Below, in pieces: positions 32,222 through 58,621 of a DNA stretch of 64,000 nt (position 1 is its first letter; each line of letters begins with the position of its first letter). This DNA is from Pseudomonadota bacterium (lineage in GTDB: Bacteria > Myxococcota > JACRCW01 > JAFGSX01). The notes beneath the pieces were generated by a model. The model was given only the letters and a program-made list of their open reading frames with translations. It searched no databases and was not told where the DNA came from. The DNA lies in the NCBI GenBank assembly GCA_043821645.1, contig JBDRCO010000043.1:1-64000 (forward strand), given 5' to 3'. Made by a program: the position numbers and the translations under genes.

Positions 32222-33678
32222 GTGACGGCAGCGACAGGGGCTACGAGGCCGTGATCGGACTCGAGGTGCACGCCCAGCTCCTCACGCAGACCAAGATCTT
32301 CTGCGGCTGCGCCAACCACTTTGGCGACCCGCCCAATCACAACGTGTGCCCGGTCTGCCTCGGACACCCCGGCGCCCTGCCCGTGCTCAACCGTCGTGCG
32401 GTCGAGCTGGCCATTCGCTTCGGTCTGGCCGTGGGCGCGCAGGTGGCACCGCGCAGCGTGTTCGCGCGCAAGAACTACTTTTACCCCGACCTGCCCAAGG
32501 GCTATCAGATCAGCCAGTTCGACCTGCCCATCTGCGTGGGGGGTGCTCTCGACGTCGAGGTCGACGGAGCGATCCGGCACATCGGGCTGGTGCGCGCGCA
32601 CCTCGAGGAAGACGCCGGCAAGAACCTGCACGATCACGGCACCGCGGCACGCAGCCACGTCGATTTCAACCGGGCGGGTACGCCACTGCTCGAGATCGTG
32701 AGCGCGCCGGATCTGCGCAGCAGCGCCGAGGCCGTGGCGTACCTCAAGGCGCTGCACGGCCTGGTGGTGCAGCTCGATCTGTGCGACGGCAACATGCAGG
32801 AGGGCTCGTTTCGCTGCGACGCCAACGTGTCGGTGCGGCCGCGCGGTCAGCACACCCTGGGGACCCGCACCGAGCTGAAGAACCTGAACAGCTTTCGCTT
32901 CATTGGCCTCGCCCTGGAGCACGAGATCGCACGCCAGATCGACCTCGTGACCGCCGGCGGCGAGGTCCGGCTGGAGACCCGTCTGTACGACGAGGCCACG
33001 CGCAGCACGCGACCCATGCGCAGCAAAGAGGAGTCGCACGACTACCGCTATTTTCCCGACCCGGACCTGTTGCCCCTGGACCTCGCCGAGGACTGGATCG
33101 ACGCCCTGCGTGCCAGCCAGCCCGAGCTGCCCGCGGCTCGGCGGGCACGCTACCTGGGCCTGGGTGTGGCGGAACAGGATGCCACCCAGCTCGCCGAGGA
33201 CAGGTCGGCAGCGCGTTACTTCGACGCGGTGATCGCCCTGCGTCCTTTGGACTCGCGCGGCGCGGCCAACTGGGTGCTCAACGAGGTGCTGCGGGCGAGC
33301 AAGCAGGCTGGTGTCGATGCCGAGGCCTGCCCTGTGCCACCCGCGGCCGTCGCGGGGATCCTGGACATGCTGCAGCAGCGTCGCATCTCCAGCACCGTGG
33401 CGAGGGACGTCTTCGCCCGGATCGAGGCAGGCCACGGTACAGATCCCACCCGCATCGTCGAACAGCAGGGTTGGGGGCTGGTGCAGGACAGCAAGGCCCT
33501 GGCTCAGGCGGTACAGCGCGTCCTCGACCAGCATCCGTCCCAGGTCGCGAGCTATCGCGCAGGCAAGACGCAGGTCCTGGGTTTCCTGATGGGCCAGGTG
33601 ATGCGGAGCATGCAGGGCAAGGCCGACGCCCGCGCGGTCAACGCCCTGCTGCGCGACTTGCTCGACCAACAGCCGTGA
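32218..33678 (+). CDS. gatB: Asp/Glu-tRNA amidotransferase subunit B
   Basis: VIGLEVHAQL, RKNYFYPDLPKGYQISQ, HLEEDAGK, RCDANVSVR, DYRYFPDPDL. ATGA overlap with gatA. Confidence 0.97.
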   Translation: MSDGSDRGYEAVIGLEVHAQLLTQTKIFCGCANHFGDPPNHNVCPVCLGHPGALPVLNRRAVELAIRFGLAVGAQVAPRSVFARKNYFYPDLPKGYQISQFDLPICVGGALDVEVDGAIRHIGLVRAHLEEDAGKNLHDHGTAARSHVDFNRAGTPLLEIVSAPDLRSSAEAVAYLKALHGLVVQLDLCDGNMQEGSFRCDANVSVRPRGQHTLGTRTELKNLNSFRFIGLALEHEIARQIDLVTAGGEVRLETRLYDEATRSTRPMRSKEESHDYRYFPDPDLLPLDLAEDWIDALRASQPELPAARRARYLGLGVAEQDATQLAEDRSAARYFDAVIALRPLDSRGAANWVLNEVLRASKQAGVDAEACPVPPAAVAGILDMLQQRRISSTVARDVFARIEAGHGTDPTRIVEQQGWGLVQDSKALAQAVQRVLDQHPSQVASYRAGKTQVLGFLMGQVMRSMQGKADARAVNALLRDLLDQQP

Positions 33679-42196: not shown

Positions 42197-43395
42197 CACT
42201 CGCTCTCCTCGAAGGGGTTGAGAAGCAATCCAGCCCCGACGCAGAGCGCGGCGCCTCCGTACATGACCAGGGGGATACCATCGAACAGATCGACCTGGTG
42301 GTCGCGGCTGGTGTCCGGGAAGTAGTCCAGGGCGAGGCCACCTGCCGCCAGGCCGCCGCCCAGCGCCAGCAGGCCCCATTGCCACAGATGGCCGGCCAAG
42401 GGCAGCCCGTTGCCATCGAGGGCAGTGCCCAGGGCGAAAACCCCGAGCCCGGCCGCCGAGCCCACGGCCAGCAAAGCCTCGGCTCCACCGATGCCGTAGG
42501 AGAGAGGGACAGCCCAGGCCTGGTCGCTCGACCCTCCCGACGGATCCTTGTTGATCTCATCCTGCAACATGCTCGCGGACTGCACGGGCCCGACCACGGG
42601 AATGGCCATGAGCTGCAAAAACTCGCCCGGAGCGCCACTCTGCAGGGCGATGAACAACCCGCTGAAGTAGGTCGCAGCCAGCGCCACGGCGCTGACGCTG
42701 CCGACGATCGCACCTGTCCACAGCATCCAGCCCAGGTCGTTGTCATTGGCCTTGCCCGCGGCCGACGCTGGCGCGGTCGTCGTCGTCGCAACAGGCAACT
42801 GGTTCGCGGGCAGCAAGCCGCGCAGCAGATCGGCCATGGCGGGCTCCACCTCCACTGCCAGCGCCTCGTGACTGGTCACCTTGATGCTGCGGCGGGCCAC
42901 GGCCTGCGCCCTGTCGGCGTCGAACAGGCTGAGCTGCACCACGGTGGTCGTGCCGAGCATGCCCACGTTGCCGAAGATCACGTACTCGGCGCCCATGGCG
43001 CCGGCCACCTCGGCGAGACAGGAATTGCTGTCACAGCCCACCTGTTGCTTGCCGCTCTCGAGTTCCACCAGGTTGCGGATATCGGTGGTGGAGATGGTCT
43101 GCAGGCTGGGGTAGCGCGCCACCGCGTCGGTGATGAGCCCCCCCAGTACCGTGACCATGGACTTGTCCACACCCACGGGAGTCAGGTCCATGATCAGGAT
43201 GCGCCGGCGACGGGGGGGCGGATCCACCGCGGGCTCGGTGCTGGCGGAACCCACGGCCTGTCCCGAGACCCCGTCCGCCCTGCCATGGTGGGTGGTGGCG
43301 CTGGCCGAACCCTGTGCCCGGAGCTGGGGACACAGCAGCATCCCGGCAAGGGCAAGCACAGCGCAAGAGGGCGCGACGGCGGGATGACGACTCAT
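42196..43395 (-). CDS. Hypothetical exported protein with a CsgG/TolB-N-like alpha/beta domain and C-terminal hydrophobic helices
   Basis: Signal peptide, GCDSNSCLAEVAGAMGAEYVIFGNVG motif, Gly-rich TM segments. Confidence 0.65.
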   Translation of the reverse strand: MSRHPAVAPSCAVLALAGMLLCPQLRAQGSASATTHHGRADGVSGQAVGSASTEPAVDPPPRRRRILIMDLTPVGVDKSMVTVLGGLITDAVARYPSLQTISTTDIRNLVELESGKQQVGCDSNSCLAEVAGAMGAEYVIFGNVGMLGTTTVVQLSLFDADRAQAVARRSIKVTSHEALAVEVEPAMADLLRGLLPANQLPVATTTTAPASAAGKANDNDLGWMLWTGAIVGSVSAVALAATYFSGLFIALQSGAPGEFLQLMAIPVVGPVQSASMLQDEINKDPSGGSSDQAWAVPLSYGIGGAEALLAVGSAAGLGVFALGTALDGNGLPLAGHLWQWGLLALGGGLAAGGLALDYFPDTSRDHQVDLFDGIPLVMYGGAALCVGAGLLLNPFEESE

Positions 43396-43500
43396 GGCAG
43401 CGCAGTATGCATGGCCTCGTCGGAGCTGTCGATCCTGGAGGCTGCGCCGGGTGGCAGCAGCCGGATCCCAGGATGCTGTTCGAAGCCCGAGGTGGCGACG

Positions 43501-43529
43501 TTGACAGCCCCCCCCAGCACCCATAAATT
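43501..43529 (+). promoter_or_regulatory. Sigma70-type promoter for the TPAT/acyl-CoA ligase operon
   Basis: TTGACA (43501-43506), 17-bp spacer, TAAATT (43524-43529), about 80 bp before tatT. Confidence 0.7.
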
Positions 43530-43609
43530 GCCGGCCAGCTCGTCCTCTGGGTGGGGGACCTGAGCCCACAATCGATCTGACGCAGTGCGCATCACGCAAG
43601 GAGGCAGCG

Positions 43610-44509
43610 GTGCGGATACACAATGCTCTGACAATCTCGATGGGATTTGTTCTCGCTGCGCAGCTGGGCTGCGGCGCCTCGCGCCAGACCGCCTACCTGC
43701 AGGACAGCGCCGACGCCAAGACCCCCGAGGGCGCCTCGGATGAGACGGCACTGCAGAGCCTGCACGACCAGGCGGAGGCTGCCTGGCAAGCGCGCGAGGA
43801 CACCGCCAAGCTGCGCGAGGCCATTGCCCTGTACGAGCAGGTCCTGACCAAGAAGTCCGACGATCGCGAGCTGCTGACCCGACTGGCGCGCGCCTATTAC
43901 TTCTTGGGCAATGGCCACCTGACCGAGAAGGACGAGGTGCTGGCCGCCTTTGACAGGGGCGCGCGCTACGGCGAGCAGGCCATGGCGCTCAACACGGAGT
44001 TCAAGAAAGCCGTGGCTGGCGGCGCAGATGACGACGAGGCTCTCAAGCACCTGACCAAGGACGACGTGGGCGGTCTGTACTGGGCGTACAGCAACCTCGG
44101 CAAGTGGTCGGTGCTCATGGGTTTCACCACCGTGCTCAAGTACAAGAACAAGCTCAAGCGCTTCATCGACCGCGTGACCGAGCTCGATCCCAGCTTCTTT
44201 TACGGTGCGGCCGATCGTGGCCAGGGTGCGTTCTACGCCAAGGCGCCGGATTTTGCCGGTGGCGACCTCGACAAGGCCAAGACCCACTTCACGCGCTCGC
44301 TCAACATCGCGCCCGACTACCTCGGCACCAAGGTGCTCATCGCCGAGTACTGGGCCACCAAGAAGCAGGACAAGGACATGTACCAGAAGCTGCTCAAGGA
44401 GGTGCTGGAGGCGGACCCGGCCAGCCTTCCGGACATCGTGCCCGAGCAGAAGGCCGAGCAGAAGAATGCTCAGAAGCTGCTCGACGAGATGGACGACCGC
44501 TTCGAGTAG
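43610..44509 (+). CDS. tatT: TRAP transporter TatT component (TPR-like lipoprotein)
   Basis: Lipobox QLGC, LYW...GKW, LDPSFFYGA, YAKAPDFAGGDLDKAKTHF, D...Y..LL.EVL.AD, Q..AQKLL. Directly upstream of dctP. Confidence 0.82.
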   Translation: MRIHNALTISMGFVLAAQLGCGASRQTAYLQDSADAKTPEGASDETALQSLHDQAEAAWQAREDTAKLREAIALYEQVLTKKSDDRELLTRLARAYYFLGNGHLTEKDEVLAAFDRGARYGEQAMALNTEFKKAVAGGADDDEALKHLTKDDVGGLYWAYSNLGKWSVLMGFTTVLKYKNKLKRFIDRVTELDPSFFYGAADRGQGAFYAKAPDFAGGDLDKAKTHFTRSLNIAPDYLGTKVLIAEYWATKKQDKDMYQKLLKEVLEADPASLPDIVPEQKAEQKNAQKLLDEMDDRFE

Positions 44510-44585
44510 TGTCTGACGGCGAGCGCCCTTCTCCTTTCGCGCTCACGACCTGCGCAGCCCGCGCGCTGCGTACCCGGAGGCTCTG

Positions 44586-45605
44586 ATGAGACATCTCGCG
44601 ATCGTGGCGACGCTGTGTGCTGCTGTCTTCGCCCTGCTGGTCCTGCCCTCGACCATCCGCGCCGACAAGGCCGAGTTCGTGATCAAGTTCGGCACCGTGG
44701 CCCCCGACGGCACGCCCTGGGCGGACCAGCTCCGCTCCATCAAGAAGCGCGTCGAGAGCGAGAGCAAGGGCCGCATCAAGATGAAGCTGTTTTTGGGCGG
44801 TACCCTGGGCGGCGAGGTCGAGATGGTGCGCGCCCTGCGGCGCGGCCGCATCCAGGGCTGGGGCGGCTCCACCGCGGCCCTCGCCGAAGGCGCGAGCCTG
44901 GATCCGCTGCTGGTGTTCGAGCTGCCCTTCTTCTTCCGCAGCTTCGAGGAGGCGGACTACATCGCCGACAAGGTGGTCAAGGACGACTTCGTCACGCTGC
45001 TCAACAAGAACGGCTTCGTGTTCGGCCACTGGAACGAGAACGGCTGGCGCAACTTCGGTACCACCAAGCCCGCGCACACGCTCGCGGACCTGCGCACCAT
45101 GAAGATGCGCTCGCAGGAGGCCCCCACCCACCTGGCCATGTACCAGGCCCTGGGCGTGCAGGCCGAGAGCATCCCGGTGCCCGAGGTCCTGGGTGCCCTG
45201 AAGACCAGCATGGTCGATGGCTTCGACAACACCCCGCTGTTCTCGTCGGCCACCGGCTGGTACGAGGGCATCAAGCACTACACCATCTCGCGCCACATCT
45301 ACCAGCCAGCCATCATCGTCTACTCCAAGAAGTTCGTCGACGAGCTGCCGCCCGACCTGCAGAAGATCCTCATCGGCGACCCCGACAAGGAGAGTGTCGA
45401 GGCGCGCAAGAACGTGCGCGCCATGGCGACCCCGCTGATGCAGAACTTCAAGGAGGCGGGCATCACCGTCTACGAGCTGACGCCGGCAGAGCGCAAGCCC
45501 TTCGAGGATGCCTGCGCCAAGGTGCCGGACCAGTTCGAGAAGAAGATTGGCAAGAAGCTCCTGGACAAGGTCAAGGCCGCGCTGGCCGAGATACGAAAGA
45601 AGTAG
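44586..45605 (+). CDS. dctP: TRAP substrate-binding protein DctP (TatP type)
   Basis: IKFGTVAPDGTPW, GGTLGGEVEMV, ELPFFF, ENGWRNF, EVLGALKTSMVDGFDNTP. Confidence 0.92.
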   Translation: MRHLAIVATLCAAVFALLVLPSTIRADKAEFVIKFGTVAPDGTPWADQLRSIKKRVESESKGRIKMKLFLGGTLGGEVEMVRALRRGRIQGWGGSTAALAEGASLDPLLVFELPFFFRSFEEADYIADKVVKDDFVTLLNKNGFVFGHWNENGWRNFGTTKPAHTLADLRTMKMRSQEAPTHLAMYQALGVQAESIPVPEVLGALKTSMVDGFDNTPLFSSATGWYEGIKHYTISRHIYQPAIIVYSKKFVDELPPDLQKILIGDPDKESVEARKNVRAMATPLMQNFKEAGITVYELTPAERKPFEDACAKVPDQFEKKIGKKLLDKVKAALAEIRKK

Positions 45606-45611
45606 GCGTCC

Positions 45612-47534
45612 ATGGTCAGCCTGACCCTCAAGCACCTGGTGCAGACCGATCCCGAAGGCGTCGCCCTGAAACCCGAGAACGTGCTCGCCGTGGGTGGCTA
45701 TCGCAGCGTCGGCGAGATGTTCGAGGCCGCCATCGAGCGTTTTAACGATCGCGTGGCCATGCGCCACCGCGACCGCACCGCCCAGCAATGGCTCGACCTG
45801 AGCTGGCTCGACCTGCGCAAGGCCGTGCACGAGGTGGCTGCGGGGCTCATCGACGTCGGCGTGCAGCACGGCGATCGCGTGGCCATCCTGTCGGCCAGCC
45901 GCCTCGAGTGGGCGCTGACCGACCTGGCTTGCCTGGTCAGCGGTGCAGTGACCGTCCCCATCTACCCCAGCAACCTGTCGCACGAGGTCCACTACGTGCT
46001 CGAGCACAGCGGCGCGCGGGTGGTGGTGTGCGAGGACCGCGAGCAGCTGGGCAAGGTGCTCGAGGTGTGGGACCGCCTGCCCGAGCTCGAGCTGGCGGTG
46101 CTCCTCGACGGCAAGGTCAAGGCCGACGACGAGCGCCTGTGCACCTTTGTCCGCCTGCGCGAGCGCGGTCGGGCCCGGCTCGCCGAGCATCCCGCGTGCG
46201 TGGCCGGGCGCCGCGACCAGGTGCGGCCCCCCGACGCCGCCACCATCGTGTACACCTCGGGCACCACGGGCCCACCCAAGGGCGCCCTGCTCACCCACAC
46301 CAACGTGCTGTTCGAGCTGCACGCCATGCGCGGCGTGCTCGAGGTCGACACCAGCGACGAGACCCTGCTGTTCTTGCCCCTGGCCCACATCTTTGGCCGC
46401 GTGGGCTTTCTGGCCATGCTGCAGTTCGGCTACATCGTCAGCTTCGCCGAGAGCATCGACCGCGCCATCGACAACATGCAGGAGGTGCGCCCCACCTTCG
46501 TGTTCAGCGTGCCGCGCATCTACGAGAAGGTGTACGAGAAGGTCATGGCCGGGGTGCGCGGGGGCGGCCGCATAAAGCGCCAGCTCTTCGCCTTCTCCAT
46601 GGCCGTGGGCCGCGCCGTGAGCCAGCGCCGGCAGGCGCAGAAGGGCATCCCGCCCCACCTGTACTTCAGCTTTCAGGCCGCCAAGCTGCTGGTGTTCAAC
46701 ACCCTCAAGAACACCTTCGGTGGCGAGCTGCGCTTCTTCATCTCCGGCGGTGCGCCCCTGGCGCGCGAGATCGCCGAGTTCCTGCACGCTGCCGACATTT
46801 TGGTGCTCGAGGGCTACGGCCTGACCGAGGACGTCGCCGCGGCCAACGTCAATCGCCTGGGCAGCTTCGCCTTCGGCACCGTGGGGCCGCCCCTGGACGG
46901 CGTCGAGCAGAAGATCGCCACCGACGGTGAGATCCTGATTCGCGGCCACAACGTGTTCAAGGAGTACTACAAGAATCCCGAGGCCACTGCCGAGGCCATA
47001 GACCCCGAGGGTTGGTTCCACACCGGCGACATTGGCGAGTTCGACGCCGCGGGCCGCCTGCGCATCACTGACCGCAAGAAGGATCTCATCGTCACCGCGG
47101 GCGGCAAGAACGTGGCGCCCCAGAACCTCGAGAACCTGCTCAAGACCCAGGCCATCGTCAGCCAGGCCATGATCGTCGGCGACAAGCGCAAGTACCTGGT
47201 GGCCATCCTGACCCTCAATCCCGACGAACTTTTGCGCATCGCCGAGCGGCACGCGATCGCCTTCGATGACCTGGGAGACCTGGTCGAGCACCCCGAGGTT
47301 CAGCGCCAGGTCGACAAGGCCGTGGCCCGGGTCAACCGCGACCTGGCCTCGTACGAGACCATCAAGCGCTTTGCCTGCGTGTGGCCAGATTTCGAGGTGG
47401 GCGAGGAGCTCACTCCCTCGCTCAAGATCAAGCGCAAGGTCACCGGTCAGAAGTACCGAGACAAGATCGAGGCGCTGTACGCCGACGCCGGCGCGACCGG
47501 AGGCGACATCAGATCGGAGGCGGCACCTTCATGA
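45612..47534 (+). CDS. Long-chain fatty-acid--CoA ligase (AMP-binding, FadD/ACSL-like)
   Basis: YTSGTTGPPKG, FLPLAHIF, SVPRIYEK, EGYGLTE, GWFHTGDIG, ITDRKKDLIVTAGGKNVAP, ELTPSLKIKR. Confidence 0.92.
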   Translation: MVSLTLKHLVQTDPEGVALKPENVLAVGGYRSVGEMFEAAIERFNDRVAMRHRDRTAQQWLDLSWLDLRKAVHEVAAGLIDVGVQHGDRVAILSASRLEWALTDLACLVSGAVTVPIYPSNLSHEVHYVLEHSGARVVVCEDREQLGKVLEVWDRLPELELAVLLDGKVKADDERLCTFVRLRERGRARLAEHPACVAGRRDQVRPPDAATIVYTSGTTGPPKGALLTHTNVLFELHAMRGVLEVDTSDETLLFLPLAHIFGRVGFLAMLQFGYIVSFAESIDRAIDNMQEVRPTFVFSVPRIYEKVYEKVMAGVRGGGRIKRQLFAFSMAVGRAVSQRRQAQKGIPPHLYFSFQAAKLLVFNTLKNTFGGELRFFISGGAPLAREIAEFLHAADILVLEGYGLTEDVAAANVNRLGSFAFGTVGPPLDGVEQKIATDGEILIRGHNVFKEYYKNPEATAEAIDPEGWFHTGDIGEFDAAGRLRITDRKKDLIVTAGGKNVAPQNLENLLKTQAIVSQAMIVGDKRKYLVAILTLNPDELLRIAERHAIAFDDLGDLVEHPEVQRQVDKAVARVNRDLASYETIKRFACVWPDFEVGEELTPSLKIKRKVTGQKYRDKIEALYADAGATGGDIRSEAAPS

Positions 47535-50065
47535 GCCAGGCCCTCCTGTTCATCCGCAACAACATGTACCTGCCCGTCGAGCGCGGCTGGGTGGGCTTGT
47601 GGTCGCTCATCGGCTGGCTCATCCAGCAGCTGGTGTTCGCCATCATCGTCGTCGTGGCCCACGCCCTGGTGGCGATCCGCGATGTGTACCGGGTGGTCGA
47701 CCGGGTGATCCTGTTCGTCGAGAAGACCATCCTGGTCGTCGGACTGTGGGTGATGTCCCTGGCCGTGTTCGTGGTGGCGGTAGACCGCTGGCTCGACGTC
47801 ATCAACCTCGGCTGGTTCTGGGCCACCAAGCTGGCCCTGTTCCTGATGATCTGGGTCGGTTTCATCGGCGCCAGCGTGGCGGTCAAGGAGCGCAAGCACC
47901 TGACCATCGACGTGGCCAGCCGCGCCCTCGGCCCCCGGGGCGGACGCATGGCCGCATTCTTTGCCAACATCGCCTCGGCAGCGTTCTGCCTTGTGCTGCT
48001 CAAGCCCTCGATCGCCTACGTGCAGGAAGCCTTCAAGTTCGGCGACGTCGAGGGCGTGTTCCCGGTGCCGCTGTGGATCGTCGAGCTGGTCATCCCCTTC
48101 AGCTTGCTGGTCATGGCCGCCCGCTTTGTCGAGAACATCTTTCGCGAACCCGTGGACGTCGAGCTCCTGCGCGCCGAAGGCAAGCGCCCCGGTCCGCGCG
48201 CCAGCATGGGTTTGGCCCGCGACCCCATGGCCGCCAAGGACGTGATCATCGCGGGGCTTCTGCCCGGCTTTTTGCTCGGCGCGGTCGCGGTCTTTTACTT
48301 CAACGCCAGCCCGGGCTGGCTCACCCTGGTGGCCTGCATCCTGCTGCTGGTCATCGGTGCGCCGCTGTTCGTGCTCATCGGCGTCGCCACCCTGCTGGCG
48401 GTGGGCGTCATGGGCAACGGCGAGCTGGTCAGCGTCACCGAGGACATGTTCGGCGCGGTCAAGAAGGAGGTGCTGCTGGCCATCCCCTTCTTCATCCTGT
48501 CCGGCGCCATCATGACCGCGGGCAGCATCGCCACCCGCCTCATCGGCTTCGCACGCTCCCTGGTGGCGGGAATTCCGGGCGGCATGCTGGCAGCGACGGT
48601 GGTGGCCTGCGTGCTGTTCGGGGCGATCTCGGGCTCGGCGCCCGTCACGGTCATCGCCATCGGCGGCATCATGCTGCCGGCCCTGGTCAAGGAGCGCTAC
48701 AGCGAGGACCTGTCCATCGGCCTGGTGACGACGGCAGGCGCCATCGGCATCCTTATCCCGCCCAGCATTCCGCTCATCATCTACGCCATCATGGCGCCGG
48801 TCGAGGGCCACGCCCTGTCCATCCGCGACCTGTTCATCGCCGGCGTCCTGCCAGGCCTGCTGGTGGCCGTGGTGCTGGCCACCTACGCCATCTTCAAGCT
48901 GCCCGACGAGCGCTTTCGCAACCACGAGCACTTCTCGCTGAGCGGCATCGGTCGCGCCTTCAAGGACGGCGTGTTCTCGGTGCTGCTGATCCTGCTCATC
49001 TTCGTCGGTATCTACTTTGGCTTCTTCACCGTGGTCGAGGCCGCCGCGGTGTCTGTGATCTACGCCGTGCTGGTCGAGCTGGTGCTGCAGCCCACGCTCA
49101 ACCTGCTGAGCGCGCCCGCGGGCGAGCGCAAGCGCTTTGGCGACTACATCGAGTTCAAGCCCAGGGACATGCCGCGCACCTTCATCGACTCCAGCGTGAT
49201 GATGGGCTCCATCTTCCTGATCCTGGTGCTGGCCATGGCCCTGAACCGCTTCCTCACCGAGGAGCAGATCCCCGACGCTGCCACCGCCTGGATCTCGGGT
49301 TTCATCTCCAGCAAGCTCAGCTTCCTCATCATCATGAACCTGTTCTTGCTGGTGCTCGGCTGCCTCATGGACATCATGTCCGCGATCATGATCGTGGCGC
49401 CCCTGCTGGCTCCCATTGCGATTCACTACGGCATCGACCCCATCCACTTCGGCATCATCTTCGTCGTCAACTTGAGCATCGGCTACATCACGCCGCCCAT
49501 CGGCCTGAGCCTGTTCGTGGCGTCGAGCGTGTTCAACAAGCCGCTCACCCAGGTCATCCGCGCCTCCTTCCCCTACACCGTGATCATGCTGGTGGCCCTG
49601 GTCGGGGTCACCTACGTGCCGGCTTTCAGCCTGTTTTTGCTCGGTGACGCCTCGGCACCCCAAAGCGAGGCCTGCCAGCAGTACGTGGCCTGCCAGAAGG
49701 CGGTTGACCAGAAGCGCGGCAGCGCCACCCCGGATCTCGATGCGCGCTTCGGGCCCGAAGCAGAGTGCTGGGAGCGGCCCTTCTTCACGTCCAAGGCCAC
49801 CGCGGCTTGCACCGAGGCCCTCGAGGAGCTGCGCGACGACGACGAGTTGCATCCCCTGCCGGCGGTCTGTGGGGGGGATGGGGACGAGGATGAAGCGGGC
49901 GACGACTCCGAGGATGCCGTGGACGCTGCGCCTGCCACCGATGACGTGCAGCCCGCCCCGGGCGTGCCGGCACCCGACAAAGGTGCACATGCGGACGCCT
50001 CGGCACCCCCGGAACCGATCGATGACAGCGAGACCGCCGGCGAGGCGGCCGCAGACACACCCTGA
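47531..50065 (+). CDS. Fused TRAP small/large permease DctQM with a C-terminal Cys-rich/acidic extension
   Basis: DctQ (WVGFIGASVAVKERKHLTID) fused to DctM (LLAIPFFILSG, FGAISGSAP, GILIPPSIPLIIY, IDPIHFGI, GYITPPIGLSLFV). ATGA overlap with the ligase. Confidence 0.9.
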   Translation: MSQALLFIRNNMYLPVERGWVGLWSLIGWLIQQLVFAIIVVVAHALVAIRDVYRVVDRVILFVEKTILVVGLWVMSLAVFVVAVDRWLDVINLGWFWATKLALFLMIWVGFIGASVAVKERKHLTIDVASRALGPRGGRMAAFFANIASAAFCLVLLKPSIAYVQEAFKFGDVEGVFPVPLWIVELVIPFSLLVMAARFVENIFREPVDVELLRAEGKRPGPRASMGLARDPMAAKDVIIAGLLPGFLLGAVAVFYFNASPGWLTLVACILLLVIGAPLFVLIGVATLLAVGVMGNGELVSVTEDMFGAVKKEVLLAIPFFILSGAIMTAGSIATRLIGFARSLVAGIPGGMLAATVVACVLFGAISGSAPVTVIAIGGIMLPALVKERYSEDLSIGLVTTAGAIGILIPPSIPLIIYAIMAPVEGHALSIRDLFIAGVLPGLLVAVVLATYAIFKLPDERFRNHEHFSLSGIGRAFKDGVFSVLLILLIFVGIYFGFFTVVEAAAVSVIYAVLVELVLQPTLNLLSAPAGERKRFGDYIEFKPRDMPRTFIDSSVMMGSIFLILVLAMALNRFLTEEQIPDAATAWISGFISSKLSFLIIMNLFLLVLGCLMDIMSAIMIVAPLLAPIAIHYGIDPIHFGIIFVVNLSIGYITPPIGLSLFVASSVFNKPLTQVIRASFPYTVIMLVALVGVTYVPAFSLFLLGDASAPQSEACQQYVACQKAVDQKRGSATPDLDARFGPEAECWERPFFTSKATAACTEALEELRDDDELHPLPAVCGGDGDEDEAGDDSEDAVDAAPATDDVQPAPGVPAPDKGAHADASAPPEPIDDSETAGEAAADTP

Positions 50066-50215
50066 GGTCCTCCCCCGGGACCTCGCGCCCCTTCTCTCGT
50101 GACCCCCGTCCTTTCCGGTGCCCATCTCGACAGCCCTTGCGACCCTGCGAGGCCCGTGGAAGCATGCGCGCCGTGTGATCACCGACGTCAATCGGGGGAC
50201 CAAGGAGCGTCACGC

Positions 50216-53212
50216 ATGGCCAAGGTCGACGTTCTCGAAGCCAAAATCCACGCCATAGGCGCCGAGCTGTTCGCGGCCACCAAGGGCACCCAGCCCTCGA
50301 TCTTCGACAAGGGTTTCTGGAACGGGAAGATCATCGACTACTGCATGGCCCACGAGGCCTTCAAGGTCGAGATGTTCCGCTTCGTCGACGTCATGCCCAT
50401 GCTACGCGACGCCGACAACCTGGCCCGCCACGTCAAGGAGTACTTCACCCGCCAGGGGCTGGAGCTTCCGGCGCCGGTCAAGACCGCCGTGCTCGGCGCC
50501 ACCGCCTTCGGCGGGCTGGGCGCGCGCATGGCCGCGGGCACCATCGAGAAAAACGTGCTCGACATGGCCCGACGCTTCGTCGTCGGTTCGTCGCCGACCG
50601 AGGCCCTGCCGGCGCTGAAGAAGCTGCGCGACGACAACATCACCTTCACCGTGGATCTGCTGGGCGAGGCCACGGTGAGCGAGGAGGAGAGCGAGGCCTA
50701 CCAGAAGCGCTACCTCGAGGTCATCGACGTGCTCACGGCCGAGAAGGACCGCTGGCGCGACAACGACATCCTCGACCGCGGCCCCGACGGCCCGCTGCCC
50801 AAGGTCAACGTGTCCATCAAGGTCAGCGCCCTGTACTCGCAGATGGACTCCCTGGCTCACGACGCCAGCCTCGCCGCCCTCAAGCAGCGGCTGCGCCCCA
50901 TCCTGCTGCGGGCGCGAGAGACCGGCGCCTTCGTCAACCTCGACCTCGAGCAGTACGCCCTCAAGGACCTGACCTTCGACCTGTTCATGCAGCTCGTCGA
51001 CGAGCCCGCCTTTGCCGATTACCCGCACTGGGGCGTGGTCATCCAGGCCTACCTTGTGGATTCCTTTGCCGACGCCGAGCGCCTGATCAAGTGGGCCAAG
51101 AAGCGCAAGGTCCCGACCACGGTGCGCCTGGTCAAGGGCGCCTACTGGGAGTCCGAGACCATCTGGGCCCGGCAGCGCGGCCACGCGGCCCCGGTGTTCA
51201 CCCGCAAGCAGGACACCGACGCCAACTACGAGCGGGTGACCCGCTTGCTGCTGGACGCCTACCCGACCATCCGCCTGGCCGTGGCCAGCCACAACATTCG
51301 CTCCATCGCCCACGCCATCGCCTACACCCGCGAGCGGGGCCTTCCCGACAGCGCTCTCGAGCTGCAATCGCTCATTGGCATGGCCGAGCCCATCCGTGCC
51401 GGCACGGTGAAGATGGGCCTGCGACAGCGCGTGTACGCGCCCGTGGGCGAGCTGCTGCCCGGCATGGCCTACTTCGTGCGCCGCCTGCTCGAGAACACCT
51501 CGAACGAGGGTTTCATGCGGCAGAGCTTCGTCGAGGGTGCCTCGATGGACGAACTGCTGCGAGCGCCCCAGGCGAGCGCGCCCGTCGTCGAGGGCACGAA
51601 CAAGAAGGCCGCCTCCGAGATCCCGCCCTTTCGCAACGAGACGCCCACGGGCTGGGCCAGCGCCGACAACCGCCAGCGCATGCTCAAGGCCCTTGAGAAG
51701 GCACAGAAGAACCTGGGCCGCGAGCTGCCCGTGGTCGTCGACGGCAAGGAGATCCGCACCGGCCAGCTGCACGACAGCCACAATCCCTCGCGCAGCGAGC
51801 AGGTGGTGGCCAGACAGCACCTGGCCCGCGGCGACGAGGCCGAGGCCGCGGTGAAGGCCGCGCGGGCCGGTTTTGCCGCCTGGCGCGATACCCCGGCCAC
51901 CGAGCGCGCCCAGGTGCTGCTGCGCGCGGCCCAGCTGATGCGCGAGCGACGCTTCGACCTCGACGCCCTGGTCGTGCTCGAAGCCGGCAAGACCTGGCGC
52001 GAGGCCGATGCCGACGTGGCCGAGGCCATCGACTACCTCGAGTACTACGCCCGCGAGGTGATCCGCCTGGGCACCGCGCGGCGCATGCAGCCCTACATGC
52101 CCGGCGAGGACAACCTGTACCTGTACGAGGCCCGGGGCGTGGCGGTGGTGCTCGGGCCCTTCAACTTCCCCCTGGCCCTGCTGTGCAACATGACCGCCGC
52201 CGCCCTGGGCGCGGGCAACACCGTCGTCATGAAGCCCTCGCGCGCCACACCGGCGGTGGGGTACGAGCTGTTCCGCATCCTGCGAGAAGCCAAGGCTCCC
52301 GCTGGCGCGCTTCACCACGTGCCCGGTACCGGCGCCGAGATCGGCCGCTTGCTGGTCGAGCATCGCGACGTGGATCTCATCGCCTTCACCGGTTCCACCG
52401 AGGCCGGGGTAGACATCCTGCAGCGCGCCGCCGTTCTGCAGCCCGGCCAGCAGCACATCAAGAGCGTGATCTGCGAGATGAGCGCCAAGAATGCGATCAT
52501 CGTCGACGACGACGCGGACCTCGACGAGGCCGTGCGCGCGGTGCTGGCCGCGGCCTTTGGCTACGCCGGCCAGAAGTGCTCGGCCTGCTCCCGTGCCGTG
52601 GTCCTGGACAAGGTGTACGAGGCCTTCGCCGGCCGCCTGATCGAGGCCACGCGCTCCTTGCAGGTGGGCGAGGCCACGGATCCCGCCACCATCATCCCCC
52701 CCGTCATCGACGCCGACGCCCGGCAGCGCGTGCTGGACCTTGTGCGCGTCGGACGCGACGAGGCCACGGTGTTGCTCGAGGTCGAGCCCCCGCCGGGAGG
52801 CTGCTTCGTGGGACCCGTGATCTTCGGTGAGGTGCCCAGGCAGGCGCGCATCGCCCAGGAGGAGATCTTTGGCCCCGTGCTCTGCATGCAGCGCGCCCGC
52901 GACTTCGACGAGGCCCTGGCCATCGCCATGGACAGCCGCTACGCACTGACCGGCGGACTGTTCTCGCGCAGCCCGGCGCACATCGAGCAGGCCAGGCGCG
53001 AGTTTCGCGTCGGCAACCTGTACATCAACCGCAGCATCACCGGCAGCACCGTCGAGCGGCACCCCTATGGTGGCCTGCGCCTGTCTGGCATGGGCAGCAA
53101 GTCTGGCGGTCCGGACTACCTCAGGCAGTTCATGCACGCGCGTTCGATCGCCGAGAACTCCATGCGCCGAGGCTTCGCACCGGAAGCGGAGGCCGAGGCC
53201 GGCGACAGCTGA
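50216..53212 (+). CDS. putA: Bifunctional proline dehydrogenase / glutamate-semialdehyde (P5C) dehydrogenase
   Basis: FRFVDV, DLLGE, RLVKGAYWE, ASHN, AYFVRRLLENTSNEGF, FTGS, AGQKCSACSR, EEIFGPV, GNLYINR. No RHH DNA-binding domain. Confidence 0.95.
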   Translation: MAKVDVLEAKIHAIGAELFAATKGTQPSIFDKGFWNGKIIDYCMAHEAFKVEMFRFVDVMPMLRDADNLARHVKEYFTRQGLELPAPVKTAVLGATAFGGLGARMAAGTIEKNVLDMARRFVVGSSPTEALPALKKLRDDNITFTVDLLGEATVSEEESEAYQKRYLEVIDVLTAEKDRWRDNDILDRGPDGPLPKVNVSIKVSALYSQMDSLAHDASLAALKQRLRPILLRARETGAFVNLDLEQYALKDLTFDLFMQLVDEPAFADYPHWGVVIQAYLVDSFADAERLIKWAKKRKVPTTVRLVKGAYWESETIWARQRGHAAPVFTRKQDTDANYERVTRLLLDAYPTIRLAVASHNIRSIAHAIAYTRERGLPDSALELQSLIGMAEPIRAGTVKMGLRQRVYAPVGELLPGMAYFVRRLLENTSNEGFMRQSFVEGASMDELLRAPQASAPVVEGTNKKAASEIPPFRNETPTGWASADNRQRMLKALEKAQKNLGRELPVVVDGKEIRTGQLHDSHNPSRSEQVVARQHLARGDEAEAAVKAARAGFAAWRDTPATERAQVLLRAAQLMRERRFDLDALVVLEAGKTWREADADVAEAIDYLEYYAREVIRLGTARRMQPYMPGEDNLYLYEARGVAVVLGPFNFPLALLCNMTAAALGAGNTVVMKPSRATPAVGYELFRILREAKAPAGALHHVPGTGAEIGRLLVEHRDVDLIAFTGSTEAGVDILQRAAVLQPGQQHIKSVICEMSAKNAIIVDDDADLDEAVRAVLAAAFGYAGQKCSACSRAVVLDKVYEAFAGRLIEATRSLQVGEATDPATIIPPVIDADARQRVLDLVRVGRDEATVLLEVEPPPGGCFVGPVIFGEVPRQARIAQEEIFGPVLCMQRARDFDEALAIAMDSRYALTGGLFSRSPAHIEQARREFRVGNLYINRSITGSTVERHPYGGLRLSGMGSKSGGPDYLRQFMHARSIAENSMRRGFAPEAEAEAGDS

Positions 53213-53253
53213 ACGCAGCCGGGCGTCAGGTCACGACGCGCGGCCCCACGCCT

Positions 53254-54402
53254 TCACCACACCACACTACCTCGAAGCCACACCAGGTGCAGGTCGGTGT
53301 CGTACCAGGCGCTGTTGGACCACTGCCGCGTGTAGGCATATTCCACCCGGCCATCCAGCGCCGGGATCCACGGGCTGGCCTCGTCGTCGGGAGCCCAGCC
53401 CAGGCCCAGACTCGCGCGCGGGGTGAGTCTCAGGTCGTGGCGGTCCTGGCCCGTGCTGGCCCCGGCGGCATCGAGGGCCACCCAGCCATCGTAGGCACGC
53501 TCCTCGACGTCGACGGCGAGCTCGAGGACCCCGTCGAGGGGCAGCAGCAGCTTGAACACGGCGCCGCCGCGGTGACCAGAGTAAAAGAACTCGTCCCCGA
53601 GGAAGGAGAACTGCGACTCGCTCAGCTTGCGTGTGAGCAGACCACTGGGGCCAATGGCCCAGCGATAGCTGTAGTCGAGCTGCAGGCCCGCGCTGTCCCA
53701 CAGGCCCTGCCCCAGGTGAACACCGGCCTCCAGCTGCTGATCCAGGGGATCCCTGGCCGCCGCCGGACGCGGGTACCAGCGCAAGCCGTAGCGCAGGCGC
53801 GGAGACAGGGTGCTGCGCGTGGGCAAGGTCCAGGCCAGTCCCGTGCCGAGCCAGGTATCCACCGAATCCGAGGGGGTGTCGTCATAGAACCAGCGGTAGG
53901 CAGCCTCGACGCTGCCGTGCACCCGGAGTCCCAACAGCGGTTCGATCGCGAGCCGCGCCCTGGCAGCCGGGCGAACGACATTGAGCACGGCGAAGCTGTC
54001 GTCGTTGCGCAGGGTGTCGACGGTGGCCTCGAGCACCAGCTCGTTTTCACCGTCGTCGCCCCAGGCCGGGTTGGCGAAGAGGTAGAGCTGGTGCTGGTGC
54101 GACAGCAGCTCGGGATGCAACATGTACGCGTGCAGGTCCCCGGCATAACCCGCGGACCAGATGTCCGCGAAGTCCATCCCCAGGTCGACGCTCGGCCATA
54201 GCAGCAGGTCGCCTTCCCGGGATCCGTCCTGGTACACATTGCTGGTGTAGACACTTCCCAGGGCCAGCTCTGCGCGAGGCCCCTCGGCGCGGAGCCCGGG
54301 GCCAAGCCAGAGCAGCGCGAGGGCAAGGACAGGCCCAGGGCGCAGCGTGCGTTCAGTTCGAACCTTTGCCCTGCGAATCGTTCTTGCCCTTGTCGCCGCC
54401 AC
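53254..54402 (-). CDS. Outer-membrane beta-barrel protein (DUF560/BBP2-like, uncertain)
   Basis: Signal-like VLALALLWLGPGLRA, YTSN start motif, amphipathic Tyr/Trp-rich strands, C-terminal YTRQWSN...Y...W. Start is uncertain (GTG 54402 or CTG 54345). Confidence 0.7.
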   Translation of the reverse strand: MAATRARTIRRAKVRTERTLRPGPVLALALLWLGPGLRAEGPRAELALGSVYTSNVYQDGSREGDLLLWPSVDLGMDFADIWSAGYAGDLHAYMLHPELLSHQHQLYLFANPAWGDDGENELVLEATVDTLRNDDSFAVLNVVRPAARARLAIEPLLGLRVHGSVEAAYRWFYDDTPSDSVDTWLGTGLAWTLPTRSTLSPRLRYGLRWYPRPAAARDPLDQQLEAGVHLGQGLWDSAGLQLDYSYRWAIGPSGLLTRKLSESQFSFLGDEFFYSGHRGGAVFKLLLPLDGVLELAVDVEERAYDGWVALDAAGASTGQDRHDLRLTPRASLGLGWAPDDEASPWIPALDGRVEYAYTRQWSNSAWYDTDLHLVWLRGSVVW

Positions 54403-55619: not shown

Positions 55620-56995
<1,376 letters not shown>

Positions 56996-56999
<4 letters not shown>

Positions 57000-58621
57000 G
57001 GCAACCTCGTTGTGGCTGGAATTCGCACCTCGACCGTGGTGCCATCCCCCGCGCTGGATCGGAGCTGGAGGTCCCCTCCGTGGGCCTCGACCAGACGGCG
57101 CACGATGGGCAGGCCCAGCCCCGTGCCCCTGGCCTTGGTGGTCACGAAGGGCTGCTGCACCCGGGCCAGAGTCTCGCCGTCCATGCCGGGACCATTGTCC
57201 TCGATGTGCAGGCTCAGCGTACCGTCGGCGAGGACCGCGCGCAGCTTCACTTCACCGTGCGCGGGTACCGCGTCGAGAGCGTTGCCCACCAGGTTGGTCA
57301 GGATCTGGCCCAGGCGCTGGGTGTCAAGCACGACGCTGCCATCCGCTCCAAGGTCGACGGCCAGGCGCTTGTCCTCGACCTGGGCGCGCAATAGCAGCGG
57401 AGCCAGCACCTCGTCGAGCAGGGCCCGCAGGGGCACCTGTCGGCGCTCCAGTGTCAGCGGCTTGCCCAGCTCCAGGAACTCGCTCACCACCCTGTTGACG
57501 CGCTCGGACTCTCCCTGCAGCACGCCGAGCAGCTGCTCGAACTCGGCGCGCTCGGCCGCCGGTACCTCGAACTCCCGGCGCAGGCGCTGCCCGACCATGC
57601 CCAGAGTGTTGAGGGGATTGCGCAGCTCGTGGGCCACCGTCGCCGCCATCTCCCCGAGAACCTGCCAGTGCCGGGCCTGGTCCTCCCGCGCCTGCAGGGC
57701 GAGCTCCTGTCGTCGACGAGCCCGTTCGCGGCGCTCGAGCAGCGCCGTCACCCCCAGGGCGAGAAATACCAGCCCAACCAGCACCGCAAGCAAGACCCTT
57801 TGCTGCCGCGCCAGGTGCGCCCGCGCCTGCACCAGGGGTGTGGCGTCGATGCCGATGCGCAGCAGTGCCCGACTGTCGTCGGGGAGTGTGAAGGGCATCA
57901 GCCCCTCGAGGACCGGGGACTCGCCGGGTTGATGGCGAAGCTGTAGTTGCCTGCCGTGCAGCGCTGCGTCGAGCGCCGCGTCCTCGCTCCAACCCAACAG
58001 TGCGGGTGGCTGCCGCGATGAAGCCAGGATGCCCTCCTGGTCCTGCAGCACGACGTAGCGCACGCCGTCGCCTACCACGCTGTTGAGCAGCCTCGCCATC
58101 CCCGTTTCGCGGCGCAGGTCCTGCAGCTCCTGCAAGCTGCGGCACCCCAGGACCCTGCGATCGTCGTCCAGGGCGCGGGAGCAATACAGACTCGCAGCCG
58201 CCACCGCGCCGTCGTCGACCAGGACGCCCGGCGGTGCCTTCAGTACCTGTGCGCGCACGGCGGCAAAGCGAACGGCGTCGAGCACACCAGGATCCCCCCC
58301 GGCGTCGGCGGCGGACCACCACGCCACCAGGTCTTCTTCCTTTGCAACCGTGGCGCGCGTCGCGTGGTCACTGGCTCCCGCCAGGCGCCCGACCGCGTGC
58401 ACCAGCTGCTGCTCGCCCAGGTCCATCACCAGGTCCAAAGCCGTGGTGGCCTGGCGCGTTCCCTCAACCACCAGCCTCGCCACCGAGTTCGCGTGCTGGG
58501 CAAAGCCCAGCTCGAGCTGGTCCAGGCTGCGATCCATCTGGCGCAGCGCCACTCCACCCGCCACCGCGGCCACGGATACCGCGAGCAGGGGGAGCAGCCA
58601 GGCATACCGCGAGCTGGACAT
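56996..58621 (-). CDS. Membrane sensor histidine kinase (ZraS/AtoS-like)
   Basis: Two TMs flanking a large periplasmic domain, AHELRNPL, NLVGNALDA, DNGPG, FVTTK, GTGLGL. GTGA overlap with the regulator. Confidence 0.93.

What the first reader, a model, noticed from the sequence alone, without database searches (positions are those of the whole stretch)
43501..50065. TPAT TRAP transporter with an acyl-CoA ligase built into the operon: candidate fatty-acid uptake by vectorial acylation
Seen: one promoter (TTGACA-17-TAAATT) precedes tatT, dctP, a long-chain acyl-CoA ligase and fused dctQM. The ligase starts 6 bp after the dctP stop and its stop overlaps the dctQM start (ATGA), so it splits the transporter genes and is translationally coupled to the permease. 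Known: TatT/TatP (TPAT) systems, described from Treponema pallidum, have hydrophobic tunnels and, to my knowledge, no proven substrate; FadD-type ligases trap imported fatty acids as CoA thioesters. Inference: this could be a TRAP-based importer of long-chain fatty acids or lipids (for example prey-derived lipids in a predator) coupled to CoA activation, which would assign a substrate class to TPATs.
Basis: partly seen in the sequence, partly recalled or inferred. Interest (0 to 1): 0.78.

Follow-up and report, generated by a model that had tools for sequence, protein, structure and literature searches.

The report
Fatty-acid TRAP importer with built-in ligase
A four-gene cassette joins a lipid-type TRAP uptake system to its own acyl-CoA ligase, a conserved arrangement that probably imports fatty acids and traps them as CoA esters, although the fatty-acid link of this transporter type was already published in 2023.

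Summary
tatT (43610-44509), dctP (44586-45605), an ACSL-type acyl-CoA ligase (45612-47534) and fused dctQM (47531-50065) follow one promoter-like site. The 6-nt gap and the ATGA overlap are as described.

The ligase is conserved. It sits directly before dctQM in 12 of 22 judgeable TatT loci from public genomes and in 1 metagenome contig. In a TatT tree these loci form one group (support 92). The ligase stop overlaps or abuts the dctQM start in 11 of 11 readable junctions. Only these four genes are shared between the loci.

The premise "no proven substrate" is outdated. A 2024 review reports that E. salina TatT (PDB 8G52, palmitate-bound; E 1e-42 to this TatT) and Tp0956 bind long-chain fatty acids.

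I did not find the following described in the papers I could search:
- the embedded ligase;
- a DctP that keeps the carboxylate-binding arginine;
- extra conserved DctQM elements;
- ligase variants with a predicted two-helix membrane anchor.

A ligase-DctQM complex prediction gave only weak support (0.55; controls 0.00).

Verdict: a new variant of a known kind. Fatty-acid import plus CoA trapping is likely (about 0.6). Physical coupling is open.

The parts
43501..43529 (+). sigma-70-like promoter, TTGACA-17-TAAATT
   Evidence: 10 of 12 matches, the only + strand site in 43000-53600. Sequence read. Function not shown.
43610..44509 (+). tatT: TPR-like T component, probable lipoprotein (Cys21)
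   Evidence: Pfam PF16811 at 114.4 bits. Best PDB match is 8G52, E 1.1e-42. Cys21 is invariant in the 14-sequence alignment A2. AAGGAGG precedes the GTG start.
44586..45605 (+). dctP: TRAP periplasmic solute-binding protein that keeps the carboxylate-binding Arg (R175, codon 45108-45110)
   Evidence: PF03480 at 203 bits; NCBIfam TRAP_S1 at 243.6 bits. The KMRSQE motif is conserved in the ligase clade and absent from the own-genome paralogues. The match to SiaP Arg147 is inferred from the offset.
45612..47534 (+). ACSL-type (AMP-forming) acyl-CoA ligase, 640 aa
   Evidence: PF00501 at 237.5 bits plus PF23562. Best NCBIfam match is FadD11-like at 367.7 bits, below its 950 cut-off. Sources name its homologues 'long-chain acyl-CoA synthetase'.
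47531..47534 (+). ATGA: ligase stop overlapping the dctQM start (translational coupling)
   Evidence: An overlap or a gap of at most 1 nt is conserved in 11 of 11 readable junctions.
47531..50065 (+). dctQM: fused TRAP membrane subunits, 844 aa
   Evidence: PF04290 (residues 79-205) and PF06808 (residues 266-699). TIGR00786 at 361 bits.
47531..47764 (+). clade-specific N-terminal extension of DctQM (residues 1-78) with an extra hydrophobic helix and a basic loop
   Evidence: Alignment: conserved in 9 ligase-linked DctQM proteins and missing from the own-genome canonical DctQM (L003).
48122..48238 (+). conserved charged Q-M linker (residues 198-236; RF.EN.FR...E.L..EG.RP.P)
   Evidence: R198, E211, L213, G217, R219, P220 and P222 are invariant in 9 orthologues. 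The stretch is a gap in the canonical paralogue L003.
49643..50062 (+). C-terminal tail of about 140 aa (6 Cys, then an acidic low-complexity stretch), unique to this copy
   Evidence: the 8 orthologues end at 678-709 aa. No Pfam match in this region.

Best explanation
This is a self-contained four-gene cassette for high-affinity uptake of long-chain fatty acids, or closely similar hydrophobic monocarboxylates.

Proposed steps (all inferred; none shown for this locus):
1. The lipoprotein TatT shields the acyl chain in the periplasm and hands it to DctP.
2. DctP holds the carboxylate on its conserved arginine.
3. The fused DctQM permease, driven by an ion gradient, moves the substrate across the inner membrane.
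4. The ACSL-type ligase, translated in step with DctQM, converts it to an acyl-CoA at the inner face of the membrane. This traps the substrate and feeds it to beta-oxidation or lipid synthesis.

What is shown here: the gene identities, the conserved gene order, the coupled junctions and the kinship to a palmitate-binding TatT.
For: Kinship to a fatty-acid binder:
- TatT matches PF16811. Its best solved relative is palmitate-bound E. salina TatT, 8G52 (E 1.1e-42).
- Long-chain fatty-acid binding by TatTs is reported in PMC11713862.

Conservation of the ligase:
- It is present in-cassette in 12 of 22 judgeable loci of the 27 found with TatT. It is also present in L119, and next to dctP in the cut contig L061, among 80 metagenome ligase loci.
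- In a TatT tree the 14 ligase-bearing rows lie on one side of a branch (SH-like support 92).
- The ligase always directly precedes dctQM, even where dctP has moved (L014, L019) or is only a fragment (L017).
- 11 of 11 readable junctions overlap by 4 or 8 nt or leave a gap of 0-1 nt.
- Only the four genes are conserved across 13 loci.

Reciprocal tests:
- 0 of 29 stand-alone ligase loci at 41-47% identity have TRAP genes within 1.5 kb.
- 77 of 80 metagenome relatives have none.

Supporting features:
- DctP keeps Arg175 (KMRSQE). This genome's canonical TPAT DctP has Trp there.
- A ligase subclade carries an insertion bounded by two hydrophobic segments, a predicted membrane anchor.
- The genome encodes acyl-CoA dehydrogenases, FadB-like proteins and a FadL-like protein.
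- The next ligase paralogue in the genome is only 33% identical.
Against: - No binding, transport or enzyme data exist for this locus.
- The chain-length preference of the ligase is not established. The best NCBIfam match (FadD11-like, 367.7 bits) is far below its cut-off of 950, and there is no close solved structure.
- Es_TatT scores higher against a ligase-less locus (L018, 206.7 bits) than against this TatT (149.7) or L009 (122.7). The characterised protein therefore probably belongs to the ligase-less sister group.
- The review states that the published work shows TatT binding and only implies transport.
- Monophyly of the embedded ligases has only 40% support in the quick ligase tree.
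- Several loci are near-copies (L014, L019, L017), so the counts overstate independent cases.
- The start codons at the junctions are inferred.
Confidence: 0.6

Rival explanations
1. The architecture and logic are the same, but the substrate is a different hydrophobic carboxylate. Candidates are medium-chain, branched or hydroxy fatty acids, alkyl-aromatic acids, or steroid or bile acids. The ligase would then be specific for that compound.
For: - The TatT family includes the sterol binder BstC. This TatT gives a weak BstC match (26.2 bits), and L018 hits BstC structure 7T1S.
- The review notes that TatT homologues of about 25-35% similarity differ in substrate.
- Ligase specificity is unassigned.
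- This TatT is only about 45% identical to Es_TatT (my estimate from the alignment; the tool gave no figure).
Against: - The nearest characterised TatT binds palmitate.
- The ligase belongs to the family of about 600 residues that sources name long-chain acyl-CoA synthetase, found in 359 of 401 sampled genomes of the phylum.
- The retained DctP arginine requires a carboxylate, which argues against sterols.
Confidence: 0.2
2. The ligase is a general housekeeping acyl-CoA synthetase that is merely co-transcribed with the transporter. It activates fatty acids from any source, for example the cell's own lipid turnover, and has no special functional or physical tie to DctQM.
For: - It is this genome's only close member of a near-ubiquitous ligase family. 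There is 1 match at E<=1e-120, and the next paralogue is 33% identical.
- No ligase-DctQM fusion protein was found (weak evidence).
- From recall, no call: operons that join a TRAP transporter with the first pathway enzyme are known, such as the fcb 4-chlorobenzoate operon.
Against: - The ligase keeps its place directly before dctQM through rearrangements of dctP.
- The junctions are coupled in 11 of 11 cases.
- The four genes travel as a unit with variable flanks.
- Embedded ligases are 51-62% identical to one another, against 38-49% for stand-alone ones.
- Membrane-anchored ligase variants occur within the clade.
Confidence: 0.12
3. The adenylating enzyme does not make a CoA thioester. It loads the imported acid onto a carrier protein or a lipid acceptor, in the manner of Aas or FAAL enzymes, for envelope or secondary-metabolite assembly.
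For: - The AMP-binding superfamily includes such enzymes, and the NCBIfam list includes carboxylic acid reductase adenylation domains (192 bits).
- The PDB hits include carboxylic acid reductases (CARs).
Against: - No carrier-protein or acyltransferase gene is conserved next to the cassette.
- The domain layout is AMP-binding plus AMP-binding_C_3 only.
- Sources name its homologues acyl-CoA synthetases.
Confidence: 0.05

Closest known systems
TPAT (TPR-protein-associated TRAP transporter): T. pallidum TatT/TatP(T)/TatQM, and the E. salina TatT system (PDB 8G52)
   Same: The TatT (PF16811), DctP-type binding protein and fused DctQM lie in one operon. TatT is homologous to the palmitate-bound Es_TatT (E 1.1e-42) and more distantly to Tp0956 (E 2.2e-6).
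   Different: - An acyl-CoA ligase lies between dctP and dctQM.
- DctP keeps the arginine that TatP(T) homologues mostly lack, according to the review PMC5812351.
- DctQM has an extra N-terminal helix and a conserved charged linker.
- The review of the published systems contains no occurrence of ligase, synthetase, FadD or CoA.
FadL/FadD vectorial acylation in E. coli (recalled knowledge)
   Same: Fatty-acid entry is followed by trapping as an acyl-CoA by a membrane-associated AMP-forming ligase.
   Different: In E. coli the inner-membrane step has no dedicated permease, and fadL and fadD are unlinked. Here a binding-protein-dependent secondary transporter and the ligase are encoded as one translationally coupled unit.
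Mycobacterial mce1 operon with fadD5 (recalled knowledge; a FadD5 structure, 8R2Q, appears among the ligase's PDB hits)
   Same: A lipid or fatty-acid importer operon carries its own acyl-CoA synthetase gene.
   Different: Mce1 is an ABC-type MCE transporter. Its ligase is the first gene of the operon, not wedged between transporter subunits.
TRAP transporters in catabolic operons with a CoA ligase, e.g. fcb 4-chlorobenzoate TRAP genes (recalled knowledge, no call)
   Same: TRAP genes and a substrate-CoA ligase are co-transcribed.
   Different: Those are classical three-component TRAPs for small aromatic acids. They lack TatT and sit among further pathway genes. Here only the four genes are conserved.
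Eukaryotic FATP/SLC27 (only the abstract of bioRxiv 10.64898/2026.07.06.736331 was seen, in the listings)
   Same: Fatty-acid uptake is coupled to CoA activation at a membrane. Some ligases of this clade are themselves predicted to be membrane-anchored.
   Different: FATP is a single membrane-bound enzyme without a separate permease or binding proteins. No homology beyond the AMP-binding fold was tested.

Membership tests
TPAT-type TRAP transporter | A TatT (T-component, PF16811) protein is encoded with the TRAP genes | tested here: met
   114.4 bits against a cut-off of 26.5. PDB 8G52 E 1.1e-42; Tp0956 E 2.2e-6.
TPAT-type TRAP transporter | DctP-family binding protein and DctQ plus DctM membrane parts in the same operon | tested here: met
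   PF03480 at 203 bits; PF04290 at 81 bits; PF06808 at 326 bits. One promoter-like site and no terminator-like site within the cassette.
TPAT-type TRAP transporter | TatT is a lipoprotein | tested here: inconclusive
   Cys21 follows a hydrophobic N-terminus. It is invariant in alignment A2 and at least 90% conserved in A1. The residues before it (Q-L-G) are not a textbook lipobox. No lipoprotein predictor was available.
TPAT-type TRAP transporter | TatP(T)-type binding protein lacks the conserved carboxylate-binding Arg (Ala in most homologues, per review PMC5812351) | tested here: not met
   R175 is present in the KMRSQE motif. Its position matches SiaP Arg147 by the offset (inferred). The review describes this as a tendency, not a strict definition.
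TPAT-type TRAP transporter | TatT binds TatP physically | not tested
Long-chain fatty-acid-binding TatT (Es_TatT / Tp0956 type) | Binds C16-type fatty acids in the central hydrophobic pocket | not testable with these tools
   Only homology is available. The pocket residues are given in a paper that is not held.
ACSL-type (AMP-forming) long-chain acyl-CoA synthetase | AMP-binding N-domain plus C-domain with the adenylation core motifs | tested here: met
   PF00501 covers residues 37-453 (the full profile) and PF23562 covers 491-625. YTSGTTG.PKG, EGYGLTE, TGDIG..D..G.L.I.DRKKD and the C-terminal K605/R608/K609 are invariant in 9 orthologues. The motif names are recalled.
ACSL-type (AMP-forming) long-chain acyl-CoA synthetase | Activity on C12-C20 fatty acids with CoA as acceptor | not testable with these tools
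   No NCBIfam equivalog cut-off is reached (best 367.7 against 950).

The most novel reading that the evidence does not exclude
The ligase is a fifth, cytoplasmic subunit of the transporter. It docks on the clade-specific cytoplasmic elements of DctQM (the loop after the extra N-terminal helix and the conserved acidic Q-M linker) and takes the fatty acid directly from the permease. Transport and thioesterification would then be one concerted step, making this a TRAP system that works like a group translocator. The membrane-anchored ligase variants would be a second evolutionary route to the same proximity.
Probability: 0.3. Interest if true: 0.8.

Novelty: new variant of a known kind. Interest (0 to 1): 0.55.

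Why it matters
According to the review I read, the published work shows that TatT proteins bind long-chain fatty acids and only implies that the TRAP system transports them. A conserved cassette that couples the permease gene translationally to an acyl-CoA ligase is independent genomic evidence. It suggests that this TPAT branch really imports a carboxylic acid destined for CoA activation.

The cassette is also compact: four genes that can be moved into a fadL/fadD mutant to test TRAP-mediated fatty-acid uptake directly.

If the ligase docks on DctQM, this would be the first TRAP transporter with an enzyme subunit. It would be a bacterial counterpart of FATP-style uptake coupled to activation.

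Tried and rejected
Papers not held:
- Zhai et al. 2023 ChemBioChem, Brautigam 2012 and Deka 2012. Whether they mention a neighbouring ligase is unknown, and so is anything in their supplements.

Literature searches that found no description of a ligase inside a TPAT operon. One search call failed on syntax.

Searches with little or no yield:
- The first, 35-sequence TatT alignment was too diverse for the locus scan. A 14-sequence alignment was used instead.
- The search for ligase-DctQM fusion proteins among longer proteins gave 2 hits, neither with a DctM domain. The tool itself calls a blank weak evidence.

Complex prediction (ligase plus DctQM residues 1-300):
- Verdict: weak support. Scores were 0.55, 0.56 and 0.55; the best of 3 controls was 0.00.
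- The mark was reached by 116 of 157 solved complexes and 2 of 215 mismatched pairs. At 0.60 or under it was reached by only 18 of those 157 solved complexes and by both mismatches that passed.
- Partner pLDDT was 72, and the runs agree in at least 95% of contacts.

Expression:
- No RNA holder was listed.
- One metatranscriptome library (X9) holds two 151-nt contigs identical to parts of tatT and dctQM. DNA carry-over cannot be excluded. X10 holds none.

Trees:
- The careful ligase tree did not finish in 288 s, so only the quick tree is reported.

Ideas considered and dropped:
- PutA as part of the cassette: it is not conserved in the other loci.
- The C-terminal tail of DctQM as a ligase dock: it is unique to this copy.
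Full report
**Observation.** The region holds four + strand genes.
- tatT (43610-44509): 299 aa, GTG start behind AAGGAGG.
- dctP (44586-45605): 339 aa.
- An AMP-binding ligase (45612-47534): 640 aa.
- Fused dctQM (47531-50065): 844 aa.

Pfam confirms each gene: TAtT PF16811 at 114.4 bits (cut-off 26.5), DctP at 203 bits, AMP-binding at 237.5 bits plus AMP-binding_C_3, and DctQ at 81 bits plus DctM at 326 bits. The dctP stop and the ligase ATG are 6 nt apart. The ligase TGA overlaps the dctQM ATG as ATGA, with GGAGG upstream. TTGACA-17-TAAATT at 43501-43529 is the only + strand promoter-like site in 10.6 kb. No terminator-like site lies in or just after the cassette.

**What is already known.**
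- A 2024 review (PMC11713862; passages and section 6 read) reports work by Zhai et al. 2023. The TatT of Enhygromyxa salina pulled down long-chain fatty acids and was crystallised with palmitate (8G52). Tp0956 also prefers long-chain fatty acids. [quoted passage not shown]
- The premise 'no proven substrate' is therefore outdated.
- The same review contains no occurrence of ligase, synthetase, FadD, FadL or CoA.
- Seven full-text searches found no paper describing a ligase within a TPAT operon.
- The primary papers (Zhai 2023, Deka 2012, Brautigam 2012) are not held, so I cannot exclude that one of them mentions it.
- This TatT's best solved relative is 8G52 (E 1.1e-42, 149.7 bits). Tp0956 is distant (E 2.2e-6).

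**Is the ligase conserved?** A scan of one genome per species with a 14-sequence TatT alignment returned 27 loci with up to 10 kb of flank. I searched them by tblastn with the window's four proteins.
- 5 loci end too soon after tatT to judge: L005, L013, L015, L016, L020.
- 12 carry the ligase in the cassette, at 51-59% identity and 440-703 bits (L011 is cut).
- 10 do not: L018, L021-L028, and the marginal L030.

Gene order in the 12 carriers:
- tatT-dctP-ligase-dctQM in nine (L011 ends inside the ligase, before dctQM).
- tatT-ligase-dctQM-dctP in L014 and L019.
- tatT-(dctP fragment)-ligase-dctQM in L017.

In every one of these loci that reaches dctQM, the ligase sits directly upstream of it.

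In a FastTree of 29 TatT sequences, the 14 ligase-bearing rows (including the window and L119) lie on one side of a branch with SH-like support 92. The 10 ligase-less rows lie outside. Four of the five truncated loci fall inside the ligase group. L014, L019 and L017 are near-copies, so the number of independent lineages is nearer eight.

**Reciprocal tests.**
- The ligase belongs to a near-ubiquitous family. 359 of 401 sampled genomes of the window's phylum have a match at E<=1e-120, but none of the listed non-self matches exceeds 48% identity. That tally includes one genome flagged unpublished, G195.
- None of the 29 best stand-alone loci has a TatT, DctP or DctQM hit within 1.5 kb.
- A metagenome scan with an alignment of embedded ligases kept 80 loci. 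Three carry TRAP genes:
  - L119 (62%): a full tatT-dctP-ligase-dctQM cassette.
  - L061 (57%): dctP-ligase, cut at the contig end.
  - L066 (49%): the end of a dctQM followed by a ligase.
- The other 77 (38-49% identity) have none in the sequence held.
- In the 5.8-billion-protein search, about 57 clusters are at least 51% identical to the ligase, followed by a large family at or below 50% (my count from the listing). 14 of the top 27 share their longest-contig length with TatT hits. This suggests, but does not prove, that they lie on the same contigs.
- In the quick ligase tree the 11 embedded ligases need only one change of label, but that branch has only 40% support.

**Coupling and autonomy.**
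- In the window and ten loci, the ligase stop and the first in-frame dctQM start either overlap or nearly touch:
  - 4-nt overlap: window, L008, L010.
  - 8-nt overlap: L006, L007, L009, L012.
  - 0-nt gap: L029.
  - 1-nt gap: L014, L017, L019.
- L004 is unreadable because of a stop inside the match, and L011 is cut.
- All-against-all clustering of ORFs from 13 ligase-bearing loci found only the four genes shared. All other clusters are alternative frames of those genes.
- The downstream putA is not part of the unit.

**Features that set this clade apart.**
1. *DctP keeps the arginine.* The motif is KMRSQE with R175. By the alignment offset to SiaP and by its position in the mature protein, it corresponds to Arg147. 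The 2018 review PMC5812351 describes Arg147 as forming the salt bridge to the substrate carboxylate, and says TatP(T) homologues mostly replace it by alanine. The genome's own canonical TPAT (contig C2: tatT-dctP-dctQM, no ligase) has Trp there, as does a third DctP. Several ligase-less sister loci also keep the Arg. The arginine therefore marks the wider Es_TatT-like group, not the ligase clade alone.
2. *DctQM has extra conserved parts.* The ligase clade has a conserved extra N-terminal hydrophobic helix followed by a basic loop, and a conserved charged Q-M linker. Both are absent from the canonical paralogue.
3. *Some ligases are predicted to be membrane-anchored.* Four ligase clusters of 923-1007 aa (P0144, which matches L119's ligase in contig length and insertion; P0146; P0150; P0152) carry a 285-365-residue insertion after the position of window residue 342. 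The insertion is bounded by two strongly hydrophobic 19-residue segments (hydropathy 2.5-2.9), a predicted two-helix anchor. This places the enzyme at the membrane in part of the clade.
4. *Complex prediction gave only weak support.* For the ligase with DctQM residues 1-300, scores were 0.55, 0.56 and 0.55; the best of 3 controls was 0.00; partner pLDDT was 72. The mark was reached by 116 of 157 solved complexes and 2 of 215 mismatched pairs. At 0.60 or under it was reached by only 18 of those 157 solved complexes and by both mismatches that passed. I treat this as a small upward nudge only.
5. *No fusion protein was found.* No fused ligase-DctQM protein turned up (weak evidence).

**Genome context.**
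- The genome (7.07 Mb, 94.7% complete) has two TatT genes, three DctP and two DctQM. Its next ligase paralogue is only 33% identical.
- It encodes a FadL-like protein (63.5 bits), at least seven acyl-CoA dehydrogenase matches and FadB-like proteins. An acyl-CoA product would therefore have a catabolic route.
- TatT is common in the phylum sample (218 of 401 genomes). The ligase-linked form was not found in the 400 other genomes sampled.
- Es_TatT scores higher against the ligase-less L018 (206.7 bits) than against this TatT (149.7) or L009 (122.7). The characterised system therefore probably belongs to the ligase-less sister group.

**Mechanism.**
- Best reading (about 0.6): high-affinity import of long-chain fatty acids through TatT, then DctP, then DctQM, followed by CoA thioesterification by the co-translated ligase at the inner face of the membrane.
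- Shown here: the gene identities, the conserved order, the coupled junctions, the kinship to a palmitate binder and the retained carboxylate arginine.
- Inferred: the substrate, the direction of hand-over and CoA as the acceptor.
- Rivals: another hydrophobic carboxylate (0.2); a co-transcribed housekeeping ligase with no special tie to the permease (0.12); a non-CoA acceptor (0.05).
- Boldest reading not excluded (0.3): the ligase is a docked fifth subunit, so that transport and activation form one step.

**Novelty and limits.**
- This is a new variant of a known kind. The transporter type and its fatty-acid link are published. I did not find the embedded, translationally coupled ligase or its accompanying features described in the papers I could search.
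- Limits:
  - No experiment exists for this locus.
  - Taxon labels of several MAG records look unreliable, so I draw no conclusion on host range.
  - Start codons are inferred.
  - Both trees are quick methods.
  - The only expression data are two short contigs in one RNA library, which may be DNA carry-over.

Noticed in passing
L003 6696-10519 (G000 contig C2, minus strand): The same genome holds a second, canonical TPAT (tatT 276.7 bits, dctP, fused dctQM of 625 aa) without a ligase. Its DctP has Trp where the cassette's DctP has Arg175.
   Followed up: partly
L119 5001-7847; proteins P0144, P0146, P0150, P0152: Ligases of this clade carry a 285-365-residue insertion after the position of window residue 342. 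The insertion is bounded by two strongly hydrophobic segments and contains a Lys/Glu/Asp-rich repetitive stretch. It is predicted to be a two-helix membrane anchor with an outside loop.
   Followed up: partly
window 49643-50062: DctQM ends in a tail of about 140 residues (six cysteines, then an acidic low-complexity stretch). The eight orthologues lack it, and it matches no Pfam family.
   Followed up: partly
window 50099-53212: A putA gene (PutA_N, Pro_dh, Aldedh) starts 33 nt after the dctQM stop with no terminator-like site between. It may be co-transcribed here but is not conserved next to the other cassettes.
   Followed up: partly
L066 4-2010: A metagenome contig shows the end of a dctQM (44% identity) followed 60 nt later by a ligase 49% identical to the window's. 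The gene order is reversed and the ligase lies outside the main clade. This may be a second, independent pairing.
   Followed up: no
L014, L019 (dctP after dctQM); L017 2035-2301: dctP has moved downstream of dctQM in two near-identical loci. In L017 only a C-terminal dctP fragment lies between tatT and the ligase.
   Followed up: no
window 55620-58621 (minus strand): A sigma-54-dependent response regulator and a histidine kinase lie 5.5 kb downstream. No link to the cassette was seen.
   Followed up: no
window 30991-33678 and 17968-24618: The GatB domains begin only at residue 421 of an 895-aa ORF, so the start may be over-called or the protein may have an N-terminal extension. A 2216-aa ORF on the minus strand was not examined.
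   Followed up: no
window 43913-44063 and 49463-49607: One metatranscriptome library (X9) holds two 151-nt contigs identical to parts of tatT and dctQM. DNA carry-over cannot be excluded.
   Followed up: partly
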